This document shows, piece after piece, positions 50,401-60,865 of a stretch of 64,000 nucleotides of DNA. Origin of the DNA: Candidatus Thalassarchaeaceae archaeon. GTDB taxonomy: Archaea; Thermoplasmatota; Poseidoniia; Poseidoniales; Thalassarchaeaceae. The position numbers were made by a program, and so were the translations under genes. Position 1 is the first letter of the stretch. Every line of letters starts with the position of its first letter. The stretch spans positions 6,006 through 70,005 of the forward strand of contig JASLKP010000005.1 of NCBI GenBank assembly GCA_030747485.1. Direction: 5' to 3'. Under the pieces are notes generated by a model that saw only the letters and a list, made by a program, of their open reading frames with translations, did no database searches and had not been told where the DNA came from.

Positions 50401-51591
50401 AGTGCCCACTGCAAGAAATCCCCCCATTGCATGCATCGATGCAGGGTTGATACCGGCAGCAGCCAATCCAGAAGTTCGTGGGCGGCCGTATCGTAATCTG
50501 AAACCACCGGGTGTATTGGGTTCACCAAAAACTGGGCGCCCAGCAATGATGTCATCCATGTAACGGTCGATTGTTTTGATACTGCGTGTGGAACTCACTG
50601 ATGCTTCAGCGTCTTTTGATTTTCCTTTTGTCGCAACTTTACTAATGAATTCCCATCCAGGGATTTTCAATCGTTCAGTATGTCTTTGAATTTTAGGTGC
50701 TTTCAAACAAAGACCCTCACCAATGACTAGCATGACACCACCTCGAATTCGGCTTCCTTCGATGTTGCGAACTTCACGATAACCTGCACATTCGATTTTT
50801 TCTGTTTCCTCTCCATTGACCATGACTGGACAGGCACGGACAATCATATCGATTTCTTCTGGAGGAGGGCGATATTGCAAACCGCCACGATACAGTCCAA
50901 ACTCTTCCTTTACTCGTTCAACTTCTGCATCTGTTGGCATATATCTAGCCAATCCTAGTTCTCGTCGAATCATATCTGCAATCAGAACCGCAAGTGCTTG
51001 AGCTGTTCCACCAGCGGCTCGTATTGGACCACAAAAGTCAACGGACACGAATCGAGATCCGTCGAGATTATTCAAGACTTGGATTCTTCCTATTCCTTCC
51101 AATGGAGCGACGAGAACGGCCTCTGTCAAAACGGCCAATCCAACACGCAAACCGGTGTCAATGCTCTTCTGGATATCCCCCGTTTTGTCGTGCATTGCTC
51201 TGGCCACTTTTACGGCCATCTCAATTGAAGATGTTTCTCGGTCTTTTTCTGCGAGCATGATTCGAATATCATCGGCAATTTTGATGCCGTCCAGATAGTC
51301 GACCTCAAGCAATTTTTCGGCTCGGTCCGCTAAATCCTCTGCTCTTGGAATTTCGACAACGTCGCGTAAATCAAGACCCTTTGCACGAGCTTCGGTGGCA
51401 ATACGGTACACTGTTTCACAATTTGTATCCATCCAATCTTGATACCTGTCCAATTCACTCTGTAATCGATTAGAGTCATATGGAGCCACTGCGGAATTGA
51501 CGCTGTCACCAGACATGATATGCACCCCGCCACTGCGAACAACTAGCATAGAACAGTGAGCGTCCAAAAGCATTGGGTGGTGGATTTGCAC
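47428..51591 (-). CDS. polC: DNA polymerase II (PolD) large subunit DP2
   Basis: Extensive match to the DP2 N-terminal region (GPIRAAGGTAQALAVLIAD ... RGGVMLVIGEGL ...) and a C-terminal Zn-finger region (CKRCDKK ... C). The true start is probably the internal Met at about 51516 (MSGDSV...). Confidence 0.9.
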   Translation of the reverse strand: MQIHHPMLLDAHCSMLVVRSGGVHIMSGDSVNSAVAPYDSNRLQSELDRYQDWMDTNCETVYRIATEARAKGLDLRDVVEIPRAEDLADRAEKLLEVDYLDGIKIADDIRIMLAEKDRETSSIEMAVKVARAMHDKTGDIQKSIDTGLRVGLAVLTEAVLVAPLEGIGRIQVLNNLDGSRFVSVDFCGPIRAAGGTAQALAVLIADMIRRELGLARYMPTDAEVERVKEEFGLYRGGLQYRPPPEEIDMIVRACPVMVNGEETEKIECAGYREVRNIEGSRIRGGVMLVIGEGLCLKAPKIQRHTERLKIPGWEFISKVATKGKSKDAEASVSSTRSIKTIDRYMDDIIAGRPVFGEPNTPGGFRLRYGRPRTSGLAAAGINPASMHAMGGFLAVGTQMKIERPGKACAVTPSDELDGPTVLLRSGQYGRIQSTEMWNRVEPEVISIWDNGEIMIGYGEFVENNKNLVPSGYVPEWFASDLLESLDSESKVEQFAEILGAPRRRLPQGIPSSGFIDGDNDSISAHKRQRIWHRRLRRMTVEWSTVVELSNTFLTAVPPPWNLWWHDLPIEFIPDLIDSLCSGRLESAISSDDGIVTTPQPGRTWMRIPGAAKNWIATEPTVLALDQDWDSKSMPGLIESLPKSIQGDWPRWTHCQEHGIIKSSLMILGVAHIHDGDDILITHGWEPLLEGLGLEFEDHEASDRPVRQRADAKEHVQVRLAGLASALTVVREESARRTTLSENRAAVRTEAETAARQRGATIAETEDEGDLAAADIEDAGPADSEALKSAEQLLDDHEVDGSLWVVRNCSALRWELAAPCRVGCRMGRPEKAAPREMKGKPHCIFPIGNEGGPQRLITTAANKGSYRVQISNRKCKRCDKKTPYTICHHRAIPDEPVECGGQTEPIDEKMSTSQRRKGIYQTIDIVGLLEVKRRNLGLDRIPQKFKGVKGLTSKQQSPEPLEKGILRAKHQLPTFKAGTIRYDMIDVPITHFRPRDIGTSVSQLVNLGYTHDIDGDELEREDQILELYPQDFIPSHLAADYLIRTCQFVDELLVRYYKMEEFYNVETVQDLIGHLCIALAPHTSGGVLTRIIGWSNASAGYGHTLFHAAKRRNCDGDEDALMLLLDGLLNFSQVLLPSSRGGRMDVPLVLSTRLKPDELDKEALNVDTAWWYPSSFYNATQDQPHPESLSKQMDIVENRLGSIGAMRGYGFTHDSDSIDSGPVNSSYKTLETMEDKMNGQLHLGQILRAVDVRRVASQVVESHFLPDLRGNLIAFTRQKFRCVRCGEKYRRMPLAGKCIIDPKASTRGRGGEKGMSFGTRGESNFCGGNLALTVSEGAVRKYIKVMRHVMDTYGVDLYTRQRVEWLAQSVDSLFNNDRIKVFTLDDFI

Positions 51592-51627
51592 TTCCTAAGG
51601 AAGTGAACTGTTGCACACCCAAGGTTC

Positions 51628-52771: not shown

Positions 52772-52817
52772 TTTATTGAGCCACATCCTCAAAGACCTCG
52801 GATAGAAGCGAGGCAAT

Positions 52818-53324: not shown

Positions 53325-53384
53325 AATGATGTGTTCCGGACTTTTTTCCGCCGTATTTATTAACTAAATACTATTGGAGAACAC

Positions 53385-54983
53385 ATGGCAAAGCATCGGG
53401 CAGGCGACCGACGAATCATGAGCATCAGCATCCCAGAGGATCTTGCAGCAAGACTAGACAGGAGAGTCGGAAAGGGTCGAAAAGATGGACGTAGTGCGAC
53501 CATTGCCAAGATGATTCAAGATTCGTTAGATGGAAAGAACGATGTGAAATTTACTACAGCGATCGATGCAAAAGTTGCTACGGCGACATCTGGTGAAATG
53601 AGAATTGAAAAGGATACCATGGGCACCCTAGAGGTGCCTGCAGATCGATATTATGGCTGTCAAACGGCCCGTTCCCTCATCAATTTTGACATAGGTGAAG
53701 ATGTGATGCCCCGTGGCGTCATTCGTGCATTCGGCATTCTCAAACAAGCTGCTGCAAAAACGAATAAGCAACTTGGAACATTAGATGCCGAAGTTGCTGA
53801 TTTAATCATCGAGGCATCTGAAGAAGTGATTTCAGGCGCCCTAGATGGGCACTTTCCATTACGAATATGGCAAACTGGTTCAGGCACTCAATCAAACATG
53901 AATACCAACGAAGTCATTGCCAACAGAGCAATTGAGATTGCTGGTGGATCATTGGGATCCAAGTCACCAGTTCATCCCAATGATCATGTCAACAAAGCCC
54001 AATCGTCGAATGATACGTTTCCAACTGCAATGCACATTGCTAGTGCCGAGGAGATTCACCATACCCTATTGCCTCAAGTTCGGCATTTGCGAGATACATT
54101 GGAGTCCAAAGTAAGTGAATTCGCAAGCGTTGTAAAAATTGGCAGAACACACCTCATGGATGCAGTACCACTAACTCTTGGACAAGAATTCAGTGGATAT
54201 GTTGCAATGTTAAATGCAGATTTACGCCGACTAGATTTCATCCTTGACGATCTCTATGAATTGGCATTGGGAGGAACTGCTGTAGGAACCGGACTCAATA
54301 CCCATCCGGATTTCGCCTCGATTGTTGCAGAGCATATTGCAGAGAAAACCAACATATCATTCACATCTGCTGAAAACAAATTCGCGCAACTCGCAGCACA
54401 TGATGCAATTGTTTCTGCAAGTGGTGCACTCAACACATTAGCTGTTAGTCTGATGAAGATCGCCAATGATATCCGATGGCTAGGCTCAGGCCCTCGTTGC
54501 GGCCTAGGCGAATTATCCCTGCCTGCAAATGAACCAGGTTCAAGCATCATGCCTGGGAAGGTGAACCCGACTCAAGCAGAAGCAATGACAATGGTTTGTT
54601 GTCAAGTTATGGGTAATCATACCGCAATCACCATTGGAGGAAGTCAAGGAAATTTTGAACTCAACGTGTACAAGCCAATGATGATTCATAACCTCTTACA
54701 CAGCACTCGAATCTTAGCAGACACATGCAGAGCATTCACAGACAAATGTGTGACTGGGCTAGAAGCAAATGAAGATGTCATTCAAAGACATCTTGAGAAT
54801 TCATTGATGTTGGTCACTGCACTGAACAATCATATCGGTTATGACAAAGCAGCAAAGATTGCAAAAAATGCACATGAAAAAGGAATCACATTACGAGAAT
54901 CGGCACTTGAACTTGAACTCCTTACCAACGAACAATTTGATGCATGGGTAAGACCTGAAGAGATGACCGGCCCTCAAGCCTGA
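53385..54983 (+). CDS. fumC: Class II fumarate hydratase with about 70-aa in-frame N-terminal ribbon-helix-helix-like extension
   Basis: [17 protein letters not shown] signature. The fumarase core begins at [20 protein letters not shown]. The upstream in-frame segment [37 protein letters not shown] has a CopG/RHH pattern. Confidence 0.85.
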
Positions 54984-55002
54984 ACTGAGAAAATGTACTC
55001 TG

Positions 55003-55021
55003 GCGCTTGCGCGGCGCGCAA
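55003..55021. repeat. Perfect GC-rich palindrome immediately after fumC stop
   Basis: ttgcgcggcgcgcaa (7-bp arms around a central g), embedded in gcgcttgcgcggcgcgcaa. Confidence 0.5.
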
Positions 55022-55079
55022 TCATCAAAAGGTGAATTGGAAGGAAGGCCCCCTGTCCTCATGAGAGGAAGTTGGGAGT

Positions 55080-55126
55080 GCTGGCTGGCGGGTTCGAATC
55101 GAGTAGATCTTTCCCCGCCAGCCAGC
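55080..55126. repeat. Hairpin copy 1: 13-bp perfect stem (gctggctggcggg / cccgccagccagc) with 21-nt loop ttcgaatcgagtagatctttc
   Basis: Read directly from the sequence; all 13 pairs are Watson-Crick. Confidence 0.8.
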
Positions 55127-55410
55127 CTCCGCATCCGTAATCCTTTCACCGTCCGAAAACGGTTTCCAAATTTCGGCCGGTTCGACCAATACTTGCGTAT
55201 CTGTCGTTCCTCAAGACGCCCGATACAGTTGCCTGTTTCGGTTCCTGATGCGTCGTCTAGTATCCGGAGATACCGTTCTATTCATCGGTTCCTAGTTCGG
55301 ATTGCTCCGTTCTAGCGTCTCATAGTGATCTGCGCACCTTTCGATTTGCATCTCACCCCCTAGTTCACTCCATCTTACGATTTTGTTCACCTGGAGAGGG
55401 AGTTGGGAGT

Positions 55411-55457
55411 ACTAGTTGGTGGGTTCGAATCGAGTAGATCTTTCCCCACCAACCAGC
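55411..55457. repeat. Hairpin copy 2: homologous stem (actagttggtggg / cccaccaaccagc) with identical 21-nt loop; two C-G to T-A double compensatory changes relative to copy 1
   Basis: Loop 21/21 identical. Stem positions 4 and 8 (counted from the loop) changed on both strands so pairing is kept; positions 10 and 13 became A-C mismatches. Confidence 0.8.
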
Positions 55458-56440
55458 CTCCGCGTCCAAGACCTTTTCACCGCCCGAAGGCAGTTTCCGG
55501 ATCCCGGTCGGGTTAGCTCAGCGCGGAAGCGCTGGCCTTCCCTCAGAACGCCCAGTACAGTTTCCTGTACTGATTCCCATCGCTTTGTCCAGCGTTCGAA
55601 AACGCCTTCCTCTTCGATGTTCCCGACTTGGATTGCTCCTTCGGATTTCTCCTCGCCGGCGCCCTTGGGTGGTCGCGTCCCTTTCGGTTCGCGCCAAACT
55701 TCAGTTTCACTCCTCCTTTCGGATTCGATCCCCTGAAGCGGAAAGTGACATCTCTGTCACCCCCTCCCCTTCGGATGAGATTGAGGTCTTACGACCCGAC
55801 CTCACCCAGGGGCGGTTTCAACCGAAGTCTCCGCCGTCCCTCGGCAGTTGATCCAGTATTGCTACCTTTTCGACCGCGCACAGGAGTGTGGCCATAGGTC
55901 GTGACAGGTCGGCTTTTCGCGATTGAGTTCTTCAGATTCTGATTGCTCTAGGTCGCTGAGGTCACCTTACGGCTTCCAGTGTTTCCCTTTGCGTTCTTCT
56001 TCCTCGGAAATCAATCACTATTTCCTCCCTGTTCGGTTCCCGCTCTTGCGAGCGACCGTGTCCCTGTGATGTGTACTCAAGCCCAGCTCTCATACACGTT
56101 CACAGATGATCTCCAACATAATGCAAGCACGATGTCTTTGTTCTCCTGTAGGCCTGCGCCTGAGTGACATTACTGCCACGCGCACGCCCCACCTTTCCCA
56201 ATCTAAAGATCGAGTCTAGTGGCCCACTGCCGTTTCCCGATAAGGGTCCCTTGTGGGCTGGGGCCTGCCGGTAATGCTGGGCACTCCGACACCACTTCTC
56301 GGAAGCGGCAAGCATCCCGTGTTCCGGCGCGTTCGATAAACCTTTCGTCGAATTTCGTACTTTTTCGATAGGAAATGAGGGTTAGTGTGATGTTTTTCCA
56401 TTGAAATGGAAATTCGATATTGTTAACTTTTGGACGTTAT

Positions 56441-59648: not shown

Positions 59649-59710
59649 AATTTGTTCACATAGATGTAATTAATAACATTTTTTAAATATGTAATAAAAA
59701 ACGGCGAGAC
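59649..59710. promoter_or_regulatory. AT-rich divergent promoter region between nikR-like gene and ZIP transporter, with candidate operator repeats
   Basis: Inverted repeat ATGTaattaataACAT (59664..59679), a second tatgtaat copy (59688..59695) and a TATA-like tttttaaatat centred about 25 nt upstream of the ZIP ATG. Confidence 0.4.
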
Positions 59711-60865
59711 ATGGCCACAAATCTAATTGCATTTGCAATAGCGACACTATTCATTGGTCTAGTATGCGGTTTAGCACCAATTTTCACTAAACTAAAAGAC
59801 GATAAAAACAGATTGAAGCAACTGACTGGGATTGCTGCTGGAATTATTATTGCATCAGCAATGTTGGTTGTGATTCCAGAAGGTTATGAATTGGCGATGA
59901 CGGATGGGCATGAGGTGTCAGAACATGAAGAAGAATATGCATTGGCAGGTTCTGTCGCATTGGTCATTCTCGAAGTTGATCATGGAGATATTACCGCTGA
60001 AGAAGGTATCGAGGAAATTGAAGGATTGATTGGAGGCCATGAACATGGCGAAGAGGGACATGAAGAAGATGGCCATGAAGACCATGGGCACGATTCAGAA
60101 GCAAGTTTGTCAGATTCTATTGCAGCCGTAATTGAAAAGGTTGAAGATGGTGACTTCAATGCGACAACCGGAATTGAAGAAATTGAAGATTTGATTTCAT
60201 CTCATGGACACGAAGAAGAGGCTCACGGACACGAAGAAGCATCCCATGATGACCACGTAAGTGGGTTGTTGATGGGTGGTGCAATTATGGCCGGCTTCCT
60301 CCTGATGTTTGTCCTTGAAGGTTCAGGAATTGGTCACGCCGTTCATGAAGAACATCATGATCACGATCATGAACACGGGCACGGACACATACATCACGCA
60401 GCTGCTGGTGGGTTACTGGTGTTTGGACTCACATTGCATGCGGCAACCGATGGAGTTGCCATTGGTGCAGCCGCAGCGACTAGTGATTTTGCCTTGACCA
60501 TGACCGTGTTGCTAGCTGTTTTGATTCACAAAGGTCCTGCGGCATTCAGTTTGGGTGTATTTTCGATGCATGAGAGAGATGAGAGAAAGGATTCGATTCG
60601 AGACGTTGTCATCTTTTCATTGGCAACGCCTGTGATGATTATCATCGCTGGTCTTGCCCTTGCAGAACTTGAAACCCACATGATTGGTCTAGCAATGCTA
60701 TTCTCTGCAGGAACTTTCCTATATGTGGCAACAGTCGATACTCTCCCTGACATCCACAATCCCGAATCAGGAAAGAAAGCGATGACTCAGGTCCTAATTG
60801 GTGTTGCAATTCTTGTTGTTTTACTACTGATTGCAAATACATTGGATCTCGGACATGCGCACTGA
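59711..60865 (+). CDS. ZIP-family (ZupT-like) divalent metal permease with two His/Glu-rich loops
   Basis: HAATDGVAIGAA and HKGPAAFSLG ZIP signature motifs, plus HEHGEEGHEEDGHEDHGHD and HEEHHDHDHEHGHGHIHH metal-binding loops. Confidence 0.75.
   Translation: MATNLIAFAIATLFIGLVCGLAPIFTKLKDDKNRLKQLTGIAAGIIIASAMLVVIPEGYELAMTDGHEVSEHEEEYALAGSVALVILEVDHGDITAEEGIEEIEGLIGGHEHGEEGHEEDGHEDHGHDSEASLSDSIAAVIEKVEDGDFNATTGIEEIEDLISSHGHEEEAHGHEEASHDDHVSGLLMGGAIMAGFLLMFVLEGSGIGHAVHEEHHDHDHEHGHGHIHHAAAGGLLVFGLTLHAATDGVAIGAAAATSDFALTMTVLLAVLIHKGPAAFSLGVFSMHERDERKDSIRDVVIFSLATPVMIIIAGLALAELETHMIGLAMLFSAGTFLYVATVDTLPDIHNPESGKKAMTQVLIGVAILVVLLLIANTLDLGHAH

What the first reader, a model, noticed from the sequence alone, without database searches (positions are those of the whole stretch)
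53385..53600. In-frame ribbon-helix-helix-like N-terminal extension on class II fumarase
The fumC core starts at [20 protein letters not shown], but the open frame continues about 70 codons upstream with no stop. That extension reads [37 protein letters not shown], the beta-strand / helix / G-x-S/T turn / helix pattern of CopG/NikR-type RHH DNA-binding domains. Either a metabolic enzyme is fused to a DNA-binding module, or a small RHH gene is fused to fumC by a sequencing frameshift or a lost stop. Fumarase has moonlighting DNA-damage roles in other organisms, which makes a genuine fusion intriguing.
Basis: partly seen in the sequence, partly recalled or inferred. Interest (0 to 1): 0.6.

Follow-up and report, generated by a model that had tools for sequence, protein, structure and literature searches.

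The report
Fumarase fused to DNA-binding RHH domain
In many Marine Group II (Poseidoniales) archaea, which are abundant in the ocean, the TCA-cycle enzyme fumarase carries a conserved N-terminal ribbon-helix-helix DNA-binding domain, so the enzyme probably also acts as a gene regulator, most likely of its own promoter, though no DNA binding has been tested.

Summary
ORF 53385-54983 (+) encodes 532 aa: a 48-aa ribbon-helix-helix (RHH) domain, a variable linker of about 23 aa, and a complete class II fumarase. It is not a frameshift or a lost stop. The top 120 database relatives (75-96% identity) almost all carry the extension, as do 16 of 28 Poseidoniales species genomes (two SAGs included) and dozens of metagenome contigs.

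- **Selection:** the RHH is as constrained as the enzyme (pN 0.21 against 0.17), while the linker is nearly free (0.62).
- **Obligate fusion:** the Met of "MRIEKD" is not conserved, so the enzyme cannot generally be made without the RHH.
- **No free-standing relative:** no close one was found among 1.84 billion representative proteins.
- **Start codon:** the true start is 53385 ([11 protein letters not shown]), not the "MSIS" Met.

All 52 distinct fusion promoters carry an invariant palindromic TTA[T/A]TAA 28-32 nt before the ATG. It is rare elsewhere in these loci and absent from RHH-less fumC loci.

The best reading is a PutA-like "trigger enzyme" that binds its own promoter. This is inferred, not shown. 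I found no paper describing this architecture.

In passing, a conserved structured RNA candidate of about 1.3 kb lies just downstream.

The parts
53385..54983 (+). Complete CDS of the RHH-fumarase fusion (532 aa plus stop)
   Evidence: ORF list. Lyase_1 and FumaraseC_C domains. TIGR00979 at 774 bits against a 665 cut-off. Full-length orthologues of 530-538 aa.
53385..53408 (+). Basic N-terminal arm, residues 1-8 (MAKHRAGD); the true start of the protein
   Evidence: M1, R5 and G7 are invariant; H4 and D8 are at least 90% conserved in 28 orthologues. Sequence upstream of the ATG diverges and contains stops.
53409..53435 (+). Predicted RHH beta-strand, residues 9-17 (RRIMSISIP)
   Evidence: Extended in the monomer model and a strand at 9-17 in both copies of the artificial tandem model, which is low confidence. 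R9, R10, I11, S15 and P17 are invariant. Aligns to the strand of Pfam RHH_1.
53436..53468 (+). RHH helix 1, residues 18-28 ([11 protein letters not shown])
   Evidence: AlphaFold helix 18-28. E18, A21, L24 and D25 are invariant.
53469..53489 (+). Inter-helix loop, residues 29-35 (GKGRKDG), leading into the G35-R36-S37 turn
   Evidence: G29, G31, R36 and S37 are invariant and G35 is at least 90% conserved. The loop length resembles the NikR RHH in the weak in-register PDB alignment.
53490..53528 (+). RHH helix 2, residues 36-48 ([13 protein letters not shown])
   Evidence: AlphaFold helix 36-48. hhalign to RHH_1 protein P0165 covers residues 10-48 at 96.7% probability.
53529..53597 (+). Variable linker, residues 49-71
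   Evidence: Almost no sequence conservation, and 19-33 residues long in the 28 aligned orthologues, mostly 21-24. pN 0.62 against 0.21 for the RHH and 0.17 for the core. pLDDT below 50 in the tandem model.
53598..54980 (+). Class II fumarase (FumC) core, residues 72-532, with the [11 protein letters not shown] signature
   Evidence: TIGR00979 spans residues 72-528. The signature is visible in the translation and was used to locate orthologues. The M72 codon is ATG or GTG in only 15 of 54 distinct orthologues, so there is no conserved internal start.
53356..53363 (+). TTTATTAA box, 29 nt before the ATG: a TATA-like element and candidate RHH operator (the inner heptad TTATTAA is a 3+1+3 palindrome)
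   Evidence: Six positions are invariant (2.0 bits) in 52 distinct fusion promoters, at a fixed 28-32 nt from the ATG in 51 of them. It is the only TTTAWTAA in the 64-kb window. About 61 of 77 occurrences in 553 kb of fusion loci lie in the fumC promoter. It is absent upstream of RHH-less fumC.
53353..53371 (+). 19-bp imperfect palindrome GTATTTATTaACTAAATAC overlapping the box
   Evidence: Found by script. Local composition-preserving shuffle gives p = 0.03. No other copy in the window.
53325..53384 (+). Intergenic region between the cyclophilin gene and fumC, holding the fumC promoter. The box position suggests a leaderless or very short-leader mRNA.
   Evidence: Sequence. Gene order cyclophilin then fumC is conserved. 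The leaderless reading is inference from box-to-ATG spacing.

Best explanation

Shown here:
- The fusion is real and obligate, because no conserved internal start exists.
- The RHH is under purifying selection as strong as that on the enzyme.
- The RHH belongs to the CopG/NikR-type RHH class.
- No close free-standing relative was found.
- The gene's own promoter carries an invariant, fumC-specific palindromic AT-rich box (TTA[T/A]TAA). The box is missing wherever the RHH is missing.

Inferred:
- FumC forms its usual homotetramer.
- The four tethered RHH chains pair into two RHH dimers, an architecture like NikR with a tetrameric core flanked by two RHH dimers.
- These dimers bind the AT-rich box, and in many lineages a second box or dyad next to it. 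The site overlaps the TATA-to-start region of the fumC promoter.
- Binding there would hinder TBP/TFB or RNA polymerase and give negative autoregulation, as the RHH-bearing 'trigger enzyme' PutA does at the put promoter.
- Whether fumarate or malate occupancy modulates binding is unknown.
For: - **Fusion is real.** Nearly all of the top 120 relatives are 529-544 aa with 98-100% query coverage (three of 521 aa are called from the MSIS Met and one of 478 aa lacks the RHH) and share [22 protein letters not shown]...GRSATI. Sixteen of 28 Poseidoniales species genomes carry it, including two isolates I take to be single-cell genomes from their names (L008, L012); none of the bacterial loci does.
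- **Selection.** pN is 0.21 for the RHH, 0.62 for the linker and 0.17 for the core.
- **Obligate fusion.** The M72 codon is a possible start in only 15 of 54 distinct orthologues.
- **RHH identity.** Pfam RHH_1 matches 28 of 28 orthologues, best E 4.2e-6. The profile finds a bona fide RHH_1 protein at E 8.6e-4 among 1.84e9 proteins. hhalign gives 96.7%. AlphaFold shows an extended N-terminus followed by helices 18-28 and 36-48. The tandem construct gives a strand and two helices in each copy; its top Foldseek hits are small F-relaxosome chains at probability 0.82 but E 0.18, which is not significant.
- **No close free-standing relative.** All strong representative hits are fragments of this same fusion.
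- **Cis-element.** The invariant TTAWTAA lies 28-32 nt before the ATG in 51 of the 52 distinct promoters. It occurs once in the window, and about 61 of 77 occurrences in 553 kb are at this promoter. Neighbouring genes use a different, weaker box. Dyad symmetry exceeds local shuffles at p<=0.05 in 9 of 27 promoters, against 1.35 expected. RHH-less fumC loci lack the box.
- **Precedent.** Trifunctional PutA has an N-terminal RHH and is an autogenous repressor (PMC5293562).
Against: - No DNA binding, oligomer state or transcript start has been measured.
- The AT-rich box sits exactly where an archaeal TATA box would be for a leaderless mRNA. It partly resembles the weaker CAAWAACC box of neighbouring genes, so it may simply be a strong promoter element.
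- The dyad or second box is not universal: the window's close relatives L001-L003, and L025, show none.
- Promoter counts are not phylogenetically independent.
- The window's own RHH scores just under Pfam's cut-off (19.5 against 20.5 bits).
- Fold searches gave no significant hit, and both models are of modest or low confidence (pLDDT 69 and 54).
- Twelve of 28 species genomes do without the RHH, so whatever it does is dispensable.
Confidence: 0.5

Rival explanations
1. Assembly or sequencing artefact: a small RHH gene joined to fumC by a frameshift or a lost stop codon in this contig.
For: Three database entries start at the internal MSIS Met, which is a difference in gene calling.
Against: The same in-frame architecture appears in more than 100 independent assemblies from ENA, JGI, NCBI, Logan and Tara. 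No close free-standing relative of this RHH was found among 1.84e9 representatives. The variable but always in-frame linker shows long-term maintenance.
Confidence: 0.01
2. The RHH tethers fumarase to DNA for a non-transcriptional purpose, such as local fumarate/malate conversion at the nucleoid during a DNA-damage response. Such a role is reported for class II fumarases in Bacillus subtilis, yeast and human cells.
For: B. subtilis class II fumarase is induced by DNA damage and co-localises with the nucleoid (PMC5711358; review PMC6068284). The RHH here is basic, roughly +5 net charge over residues 1-50 by my own count from the sequence. It is attached by a long flexible linker, as a tether would be.
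Against: RHH domains are normally sequence-specific operator binders, by established knowledge. The invariant palindromic box sits in the gene's own promoter and is lost together with the RHH, which points to regulation. Nothing in the neighbourhood (cyclophilin, OPRTase, a SnoaL-like gene, PolD) changes with presence of the RHH.
Confidence: 0.15
3. The RHH-fumarase is a transcription factor for a wider regulon, such as TCA-cycle or C4-dicarboxylate genes, with the enzyme tetramer acting as the fumarate/malate sensor. Its own promoter would be only one of its targets, or not a target at all.
For: A tetrameric ligand-binding core flanked by RHH dimers is how NikR works (established knowledge; weak in-register similarity to the NikR RHH). 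RHH residues are nearly invariant across families, as expected for a conserved target motif.
Against: There is no second copy of the box or of the palindrome in the 64-kb window. Only about 16 TTTAWTAA occurrences lie outside the fumC promoter in 553 kb, below random expectation. Whole genomes could not be scanned with these tools.
Confidence: 0.2
4. The extension has an RHH-like fold but does not bind DNA. It would serve as an extra oligomerisation or partner-binding module, as in some antitoxin-type RHH proteins, or simply affect stability.
For: Weak matches to the HicB-like antitoxin RHH region in 23 of 28 orthologues, best E 0.016. The monomer model's top Foldseek hits are antitoxins but are not significant, E above 2. 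Repeated loss shows it is dispensable.
Against: The most conserved residues are the basic arm and the strand (H4, R5, R9, R10, S13, S15) and the G-R-S helix-2 cap. By established knowledge of the fold, these are the DNA-contacting elements of RHH proteins. No partner gene co-occurs with the fusion.
Confidence: 0.12

Closest known systems
Trifunctional PutA (proline utilization A) of E. coli, Salmonella and Pseudomonas putida
   Same: An N-terminal RHH domain of about 47 residues sits on the same polypeptide as a central metabolic enzyme. The enzyme moonlights as an autogenous repressor of its own promoter (PMC5293562). The RHH domain is likewise absent from many orthologues (the bifunctional PutAs).
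   Different: The catalytic part is an unrelated lyase-fold class II fumarase, not PRODH/P5CDH. The organism is an archaeon with a TATA/TFB-type promoter. There is no flavin redox switch or membrane association to drive derepression. The candidate operator is AT-rich (TTAWTAA), whereas the PutA site as I recall it is GTTGCA. Function here is inferred only.
NikR (nickel-responsive RHH regulator)
   Same: It gives the closest, though weak and not significant, sequence matches for the RHH, with a similar long helix1-helix2 loop (NCBIfam PRK00630 E 0.058; PDB NikR chains E about 0.5, in register). The expected quaternary layout is the same: a tetrameric C-terminal core with RHH dimers formed from pairs of N-termini.
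   Different: NikR's core is a small ACT-like nickel-binding domain, whereas here it is a 460-residue enzyme. The NikR half-sites are far apart (N16, by my recollection). No metal-site residues are present.
Canonical class II fumarase FumC (TIGR00979), including the B. subtilis enzyme with a DNA-damage role
   Same: The core is a full-length, high-scoring FumC with the signature loop. The closest non-archaeal relatives are bacterial FumCs at 58-68% identity.
   Different: None of the bacterial FumC loci examined, and 12 of 28 Poseidoniales ones, has any N-terminal domain. Nucleoid association of B. subtilis fumarase does not involve a fused DNA-binding domain (PMC5711358).
Small free-standing CopG/RHH_1 regulators and RHH antitoxins (Pfam PF01402)
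   Same: Same fold class and motif layout: strand, helix, G-x-S turn, helix. hhalign gives 96.7% to one such protein.
   Different: Those are proteins of 45-90 residues. This RHH lineage was found only as the N-terminus of fumarase.

Membership tests
Ribbon-helix-helix, CopG family (Pfam RHH_1, PF01402) | Score at or above the Pfam gathering threshold (20.5 bits) | tested here: inconclusive
   The window sequence scores 19.1-19.5 bits (E about 1e-3), just below the cut-off. All 28 orthologous extensions match, best E 4.2e-6. Profile-profile comparison to P0165, a protein that itself scores 34.5 bits on RHH_1, gives 96.7%.
Ribbon-helix-helix, CopG family (Pfam RHH_1, PF01402) | Strand-helix-helix topology of about 45 residues | tested here: met
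   The AlphaFold monomer model (28-sequence alignment, pLDDT 69) has an extended 9-17 segment and helices 18-28 and 36-48. The tandem construct gives a strand at 9-17 and two helices in each copy, at low confidence (pLDDT 54).
Ribbon-helix-helix, CopG family (Pfam RHH_1, PF01402) | G-x-S/T/N turn capping helix 2, and an alternating hydrophobic/polar strand | tested here: met
   G35-R36-S37 is invariant or nearly so. The strand R9 R10 I11 M12 S13 I14 S15 I16 alternates, with R9, R10, I11 and S15 invariant.
Ribbon-helix-helix, CopG family (Pfam RHH_1, PF01402) | Dimerisation through an antiparallel two-stranded ribbon that inserts into the DNA major groove | not testable with these tools
   No multimer or DNA-complex prediction was available. 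The artificial tandem model only hints at strands in both copies, and strand pairing was not reported.
Class II fumarate hydratase (FumC, TIGR00979) | Equivalog HMM above the trusted cut-off, with Lyase_1 and FumaraseC_C domains | tested here: met
   774.3 bits against 664.75 over residues 72-528. PF00206 at E 2.5e-110 and PF10415 at E 4.7e-26.
Class II fumarate hydratase (FumC, TIGR00979) | Catalytic signature loop GSSxMPxKxNP | tested here: met
   [11 protein letters not shown] is present in the translation. The same regular expression located the orthologues.
Class II fumarate hydratase (FumC, TIGR00979) | Homotetramer with fumarase activity | not testable with these tools
   Inferred from family membership only.
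PutA-type RHH-enzyme autogenous repressors | N-terminal RHH on the same chain as the enzyme | tested here: met
   Single ORF with no conserved internal start.
PutA-type RHH-enzyme autogenous repressors | PRODH and P5CDH catalytic domains (homology to PutA) | tested here: not met
   Only Lyase_1 and FumaraseC_C were found. It is therefore an analogue of PutA, not a member of that family.
PutA-type RHH-enzyme autogenous repressors | Operator sites for the RHH in the enzyme's own promoter | tested here: inconclusive
   An invariant, fumC-specific palindromic TTAWTAA box, with dyads in many lineages. The box coincides with the expected TATA position, and no binding data exist.
NikR | C-terminal ACT-like tetramerisation and nickel-binding domain | tested here: not met
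   The C-terminal part is FumC. Only the RHH part shows weak similarity.

The most novel reading that the evidence does not exclude
The fumarase tetramer acts as the sensor module of a one-component archaeal transcription factor. Occupancy of its active or allosteric sites by fumarate or malate would change how the two tethered RHH dimers engage AT-rich operators, coupling TCA-cycle flux directly to transcription in some of the ocean's most abundant archaea. Alternatively, the RHH recruits fumarase to DNA as a hard-wired form of the fumarase DNA-damage function known from bacteria and eukaryotes.
Probability: 0.25. Interest if true: 0.8.

Novelty: new variant of a known kind. Interest (0 to 1): 0.6.

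Why it matters
Enzymes that double as transcription factors ("trigger enzymes") are rare. PutA is the textbook case of one with a fused RHH domain. A second, unrelated example would show that this solution evolved independently, here in a TCA-cycle enzyme, in archaea, and maintained across both families of Marine Group II. It would also give a tractable handle on gene regulation in an abundant but uncultured group, because the domain, the enzyme and a 60-bp promoter can all be tested in vitro.

The finding also bears on the unresolved question of why class II fumarases associate with DNA in bacteria and eukaryotes.

In practical terms, current annotations call these proteins plain "class II fumarate hydratase". 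The precomputed domain lists show only PF00206 and PF10415, so the DNA-binding domain is invisible in databases.

Tried and rejected
- **Frameshift or lost stop:** rejected, because orthologues everywhere keep the frame.
- **Internal translation start at M72 giving free fumarase:** rejected, because only 15 of 54 distinct orthologues have ATG or GTG there.
- **Separate RHH gene next to RHH-less fumC (gene fission):** none within 3 kb.
- **Free-standing relatives or other fusion partners of this RHH:** none. The profile search of 1.84e9 representatives returned only fragments of the same fusion, then generic RHH proteins at E about 1e-4.
- **PDB sequence profile search:** only non-significant NikR hits.
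- **Foldseek with the monomer model:** nothing significant.
- **Alignment-based tandem (single-chain dimer) prediction:** The single-sequence version ran but with low confidence.
- **Extra copies of the promoter palindrome or box in the window (regulon search):** none.
- **A single common dyad operator for all lineages:** not found. Second boxes differ between lineages and are missing in the window's closest relatives.
- **Sigma-70 promoter and terminator scan:** uninformative for an archaeon.
- **Literature:** no paper combines RHH with fumarase, or Poseidoniales/Marine Group II with this feature.
- **A palindrome I first thought recurred upstream of several window genes:** it is a single site seen from two divergent genes.
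Full report
**1. The observation**

The window carries one ORF, 53385-54983 on the + strand, of 532 aa. Residues 72-528 match the class II fumarase equivalog TIGR00979 at 774 bits against a cut-off of 665. Pfam finds Lyase_1 and FumaraseC_C. The reading frame actually begins 11 codons earlier, at [11 protein letters not shown].

**2. The fusion is real, not an artefact**

A search of 5.8 billion clustered proteins returned 120 top relatives at 75-96% identity. Nearly all are 529-544 aa and cover 98-100% of the query. Where named, they are Thalassarchaeaceae, Poseidonia or Thermoplasmatota, that is Marine Group II.

Their N-termini share [11 protein letters not shown][IMVL]SISIPE.LA..LD..VGKG...GRSATI..MI. 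A stretch of 19-33 residues, mostly 21-24, with almost no sequence conservation follows, and then the fumarase core. In an alignment of 28 diverse orthologues, 16 positions of the first 51 are invariant and mean column identity is 78%.

Across 26 loci the proportion of non-synonymous differences is 0.21 in the RHH, 0.62 in the linker and 0.17 in the core. Synonymous sites are saturated at about 0.84 in both the RHH and the core. The extension is therefore under purifying selection as strong as that on the enzyme, and the linker behaves as a spacer.

The residue equivalent to M72 is V, I, M, Y, T or A. Only 15 of 54 distinct orthologues have ATG or GTG there, so free fumarase cannot generally be made from an internal start.

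**3. Distribution**

In one genome per GTDB species, 16 of 28 Poseidoniales fumC loci carry the extension. This count includes the window, two isolates that I take to be single-cell genomes from their names, and two divergent variants (L009 and L023). Twelve lack it and start at MGE[MV]R or MANVR. None of the bacterial loci has it.

In a neighbour-joining tree of the cores, Poseidoniales FumC forms one clade. RHH-bearing sequences occupy the basal branches and RHH-less ones are scattered among them. This fits one early gain followed by several losses, although NJ topology is weak evidence.

No separate RHH gene lies within 3 kb of RHH-less loci. A profile of the domain, searched against 1.84 billion representative proteins, found 45 hits. 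The 41 with E below 1e-5 have N-termini matching this fusion's domain; the 18 of them I read are fragments, frameshifted or chimeric calls of the same fusion. Apart from one repetitive 860-aa protein that I take to be spurious, the rest are generic small RHH proteins at E about 1e-4. This RHH lineage therefore appears only on fumarase.

**4. Is it an RHH?**

- The window's own sequence scores 19.1-19.5 bits on Pfam RHH_1, against a cut-off of 20.5.
- All 28 orthologous extensions match, best E 4.2e-6. Twenty-three also touch the RHH part of HicB-like antitoxins.
- One generic protein found by the profile, P0165, is a bona fide RHH_1 member at 34.5 bits. hhalign of the domain alignment against it gives 96.7% probability and 38% identity over residues 10-48.
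- The AlphaFold model from the 28-sequence alignment (pLDDT 69) shows an extended N-terminus and helices at 18-28 and 36-48. The invariant G35-R36-S37 sits at the start of helix 2, the classical RHH turn.
- An artificial RHH-linker-RHH chain, folded from a single sequence (pLDDT 54, weak), gives a strand at 9-17 plus two helices in each copy.
- Its best Foldseek hits are small chains of the F-plasmid relaxosome, at probability 0.82 but a non-significant E of 0.18. I suspect these are the tandem-RHH protein TraY, but the tool does not name the chains.
- PDB sequence search gives only NikR RHH domains, in register but not significant, at E about 0.5.

Taken together the fold assignment is sound. 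Dimerisation and DNA binding remain inferred.

**5. The promoter**

Gene order is conserved: PolD large subunit, OPRTase, sometimes a SnoaL-like gene, cyclophilin, then fumC, a gene-poor gap, a beta-propeller gene and an M32 carboxypeptidase.

In 52 distinct upstream regions of fusion genes, TTA[T/A]TAA is invariant at six positions (2.0 bits each). The 8-mer TTTAWTAA starts 28-32 nt before the ATG in 51 of the 52. The heptad is itself a 3+1+3 palindrome.

Many lineages add a second box or a longer dyad:
- the window has GTATTTATTaACTAAATAC at 53353-53371;
- L008, L010, L011 and L012 have TTAATAAnTTATTAA;
- L006 has TTAATAATTAATTATTAA;
- L009 has TTAATAAC-N11-GTTATTAA.

With shuffles confined to the 32-nt AT-rich block, 9 of 27 promoters show dyad symmetry at p<=0.05, against 1.35 expected. 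These promoters are not phylogenetically independent, and the window's closest relatives (L001-L003) show no dyad.

The 8-mer occurs once in the 64-kb window. In 553 kb around 65 fusion loci, about 61 of 77 occurrences lie in the fumC promoter, leaving fewer elsewhere than chance predicts. The cyclophilin and propeller genes next door use a different, weaker box of roughly CAAWAACC. RHH-less fumC loci have no such element, and in some the gene abuts cyclophilin directly.

The box is thus fumC-specific, extremely conserved, and lost together with the RHH. However, it sits exactly where a TATA box would be for a leaderless transcript. These data cannot separate "operator" from "unusually strong TATA box", and it may be both.

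**6. Mechanism**

The most economical reading is a trigger enzyme. FumC tetramerises as usual. The flexible linkers let pairs of N-termini form two RHH dimers, a layout like NikR. The dimers bind the AT-rich box or dyad over the TATA-to-start region and repress the gene's own transcription, as the RHH of trifunctional PutA does (PMC5293562). I put this at about 0.5.

The rivals are:
- a wider regulon with the enzyme acting as a fumarate/malate sensor (0.2; no extra sites in this window);
- a non-regulatory DNA tether related to the DNA-damage role of class II fumarases (0.15; PMC5711358, PMC6068284);
- a non-DNA role for the domain (0.12);
- an artefact (0.01).

**7. Novelty**

Full-text searches found no paper linking RHH and fumarase, or Poseidoniales/Marine Group II and this feature. 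Source annotations and precomputed domain lists show only the fumarase domains. Because RHH-enzyme fusions are known (PutA), I class this as a new variant of a known kind. It is of moderate to high interest because it involves a core TCA enzyme in a very abundant uncultured archaeal group, and because it is directly testable.

**8. Seen in passing**

The 1.35 kb after fumC (about 54990-56400) has no credible ORF. Its GC content is 55-58% against about 45% around it, and its minus strand is purine-rich. It matches no Rfam family.

It contains two tandem units of about 331 nt. It is conserved at 67-71% identity over about 1.1-1.3 kb at the same position in L001-L003 and more partially in L081/L082.

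A 61-nt hairpin module, GCGGAGGCUGG...CCAGNNCUCCCAA, shows clear compensatory changes. Eleven of 32 pairs covary in 12 copies and 6 of 17 pairs in 20 distinct variants. Its terminal loops swap between UUCG and GNRA types.

A covariance model scores 79-84 bits on the minus strand against 30 on the plus strand. It finds the module after fumC in both RHH-bearing and RHH-less loci. A pattern scan found it in about 67 marine metagenome contigs. Where fumC is on the contig it almost always lies within about 100-250 nt of the fumC stop and is convergent with it.

This looks like an undescribed large structured RNA of Marine Group II. Its presence does not track the RHH.

Noticed in passing
window 54990-56400 (minus strand); hairpin modules at 55072-55132 and 55403-55463: A GC-rich region of about 1.35 kb between fumC and the beta-propeller gene has no credible ORF and no Rfam match. 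It holds two tandem units of about 331 nt and a 61-nt hairpin with many compensatory base-pair changes and UUCG/GNRA loop swaps. It is conserved downstream of fumC, convergent with it, across Poseidoniales and in about 67 marine metagenome contigs. It is a candidate novel large structured RNA.
   Followed up: partly
window 51589-51605: A perfect 17-bp palindrome, CACTTCCTAAGGAAGTG, lies in the short divergent intergenic region between the PolD large-subunit gene and the OPRTase gene. A similar CACTTCCgtaGGAAGTG lies about 39 nt before an ORF start at position 900 in L003, which I did not identify. It may be a shared regulatory site.
   Followed up: partly
L009:2971-3000 and L023:2937-2970 (upstream of their fumC genes): Two divergent RHH variants are fused to fumarase: MAKHNVGDRRIVSVSIPEDVAQELDRW... 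in L009 and MSSKGRPKTHDARIVSVSMPSEV... in L023. L009 has the same half-sites spaced differently (TTAATAAC-N11-GTTATTAA, ending 3 nt before the ATG). L023 has a 25-bp dyad.
   Followed up: partly
L013-L022, L024, L046 (RHH-less Poseidoniales fumC loci): Twelve of 28 species genomes lack both the RHH and the AT-rich box. In some (L016, L019) cyclophilin is still the upstream gene, and in L019 fumC starts only 14 nt after its stop. This suggests clean deletions of promoter plus RHH and co-transcription with the upstream gene.
   Followed up: partly
upstream of the cyclophilin gene (window about 52790-52800) and of the beta-propeller gene, and the same positions in about 50 loci: Neighbouring Marine Group II genes share a weak conserved box of roughly CAA[A/G/T]A[A/T]C[C/T], about 20-30 nt before the ATG. 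This may be the ordinary promoter or TATA element of these archaea and suggests widespread leaderless or short-leader transcripts.
   Followed up: no
window 59660-59710 (upstream of the ZIP transporter gene 59711-60865): An AT-rich upstream region contains TTAATAAC and the palindrome ACATTTTTtAAATATGT. It is the only other strongly AT-rich promoter-like stretch noticed in the window. No TTTAWTAA box is present.
   Followed up: no
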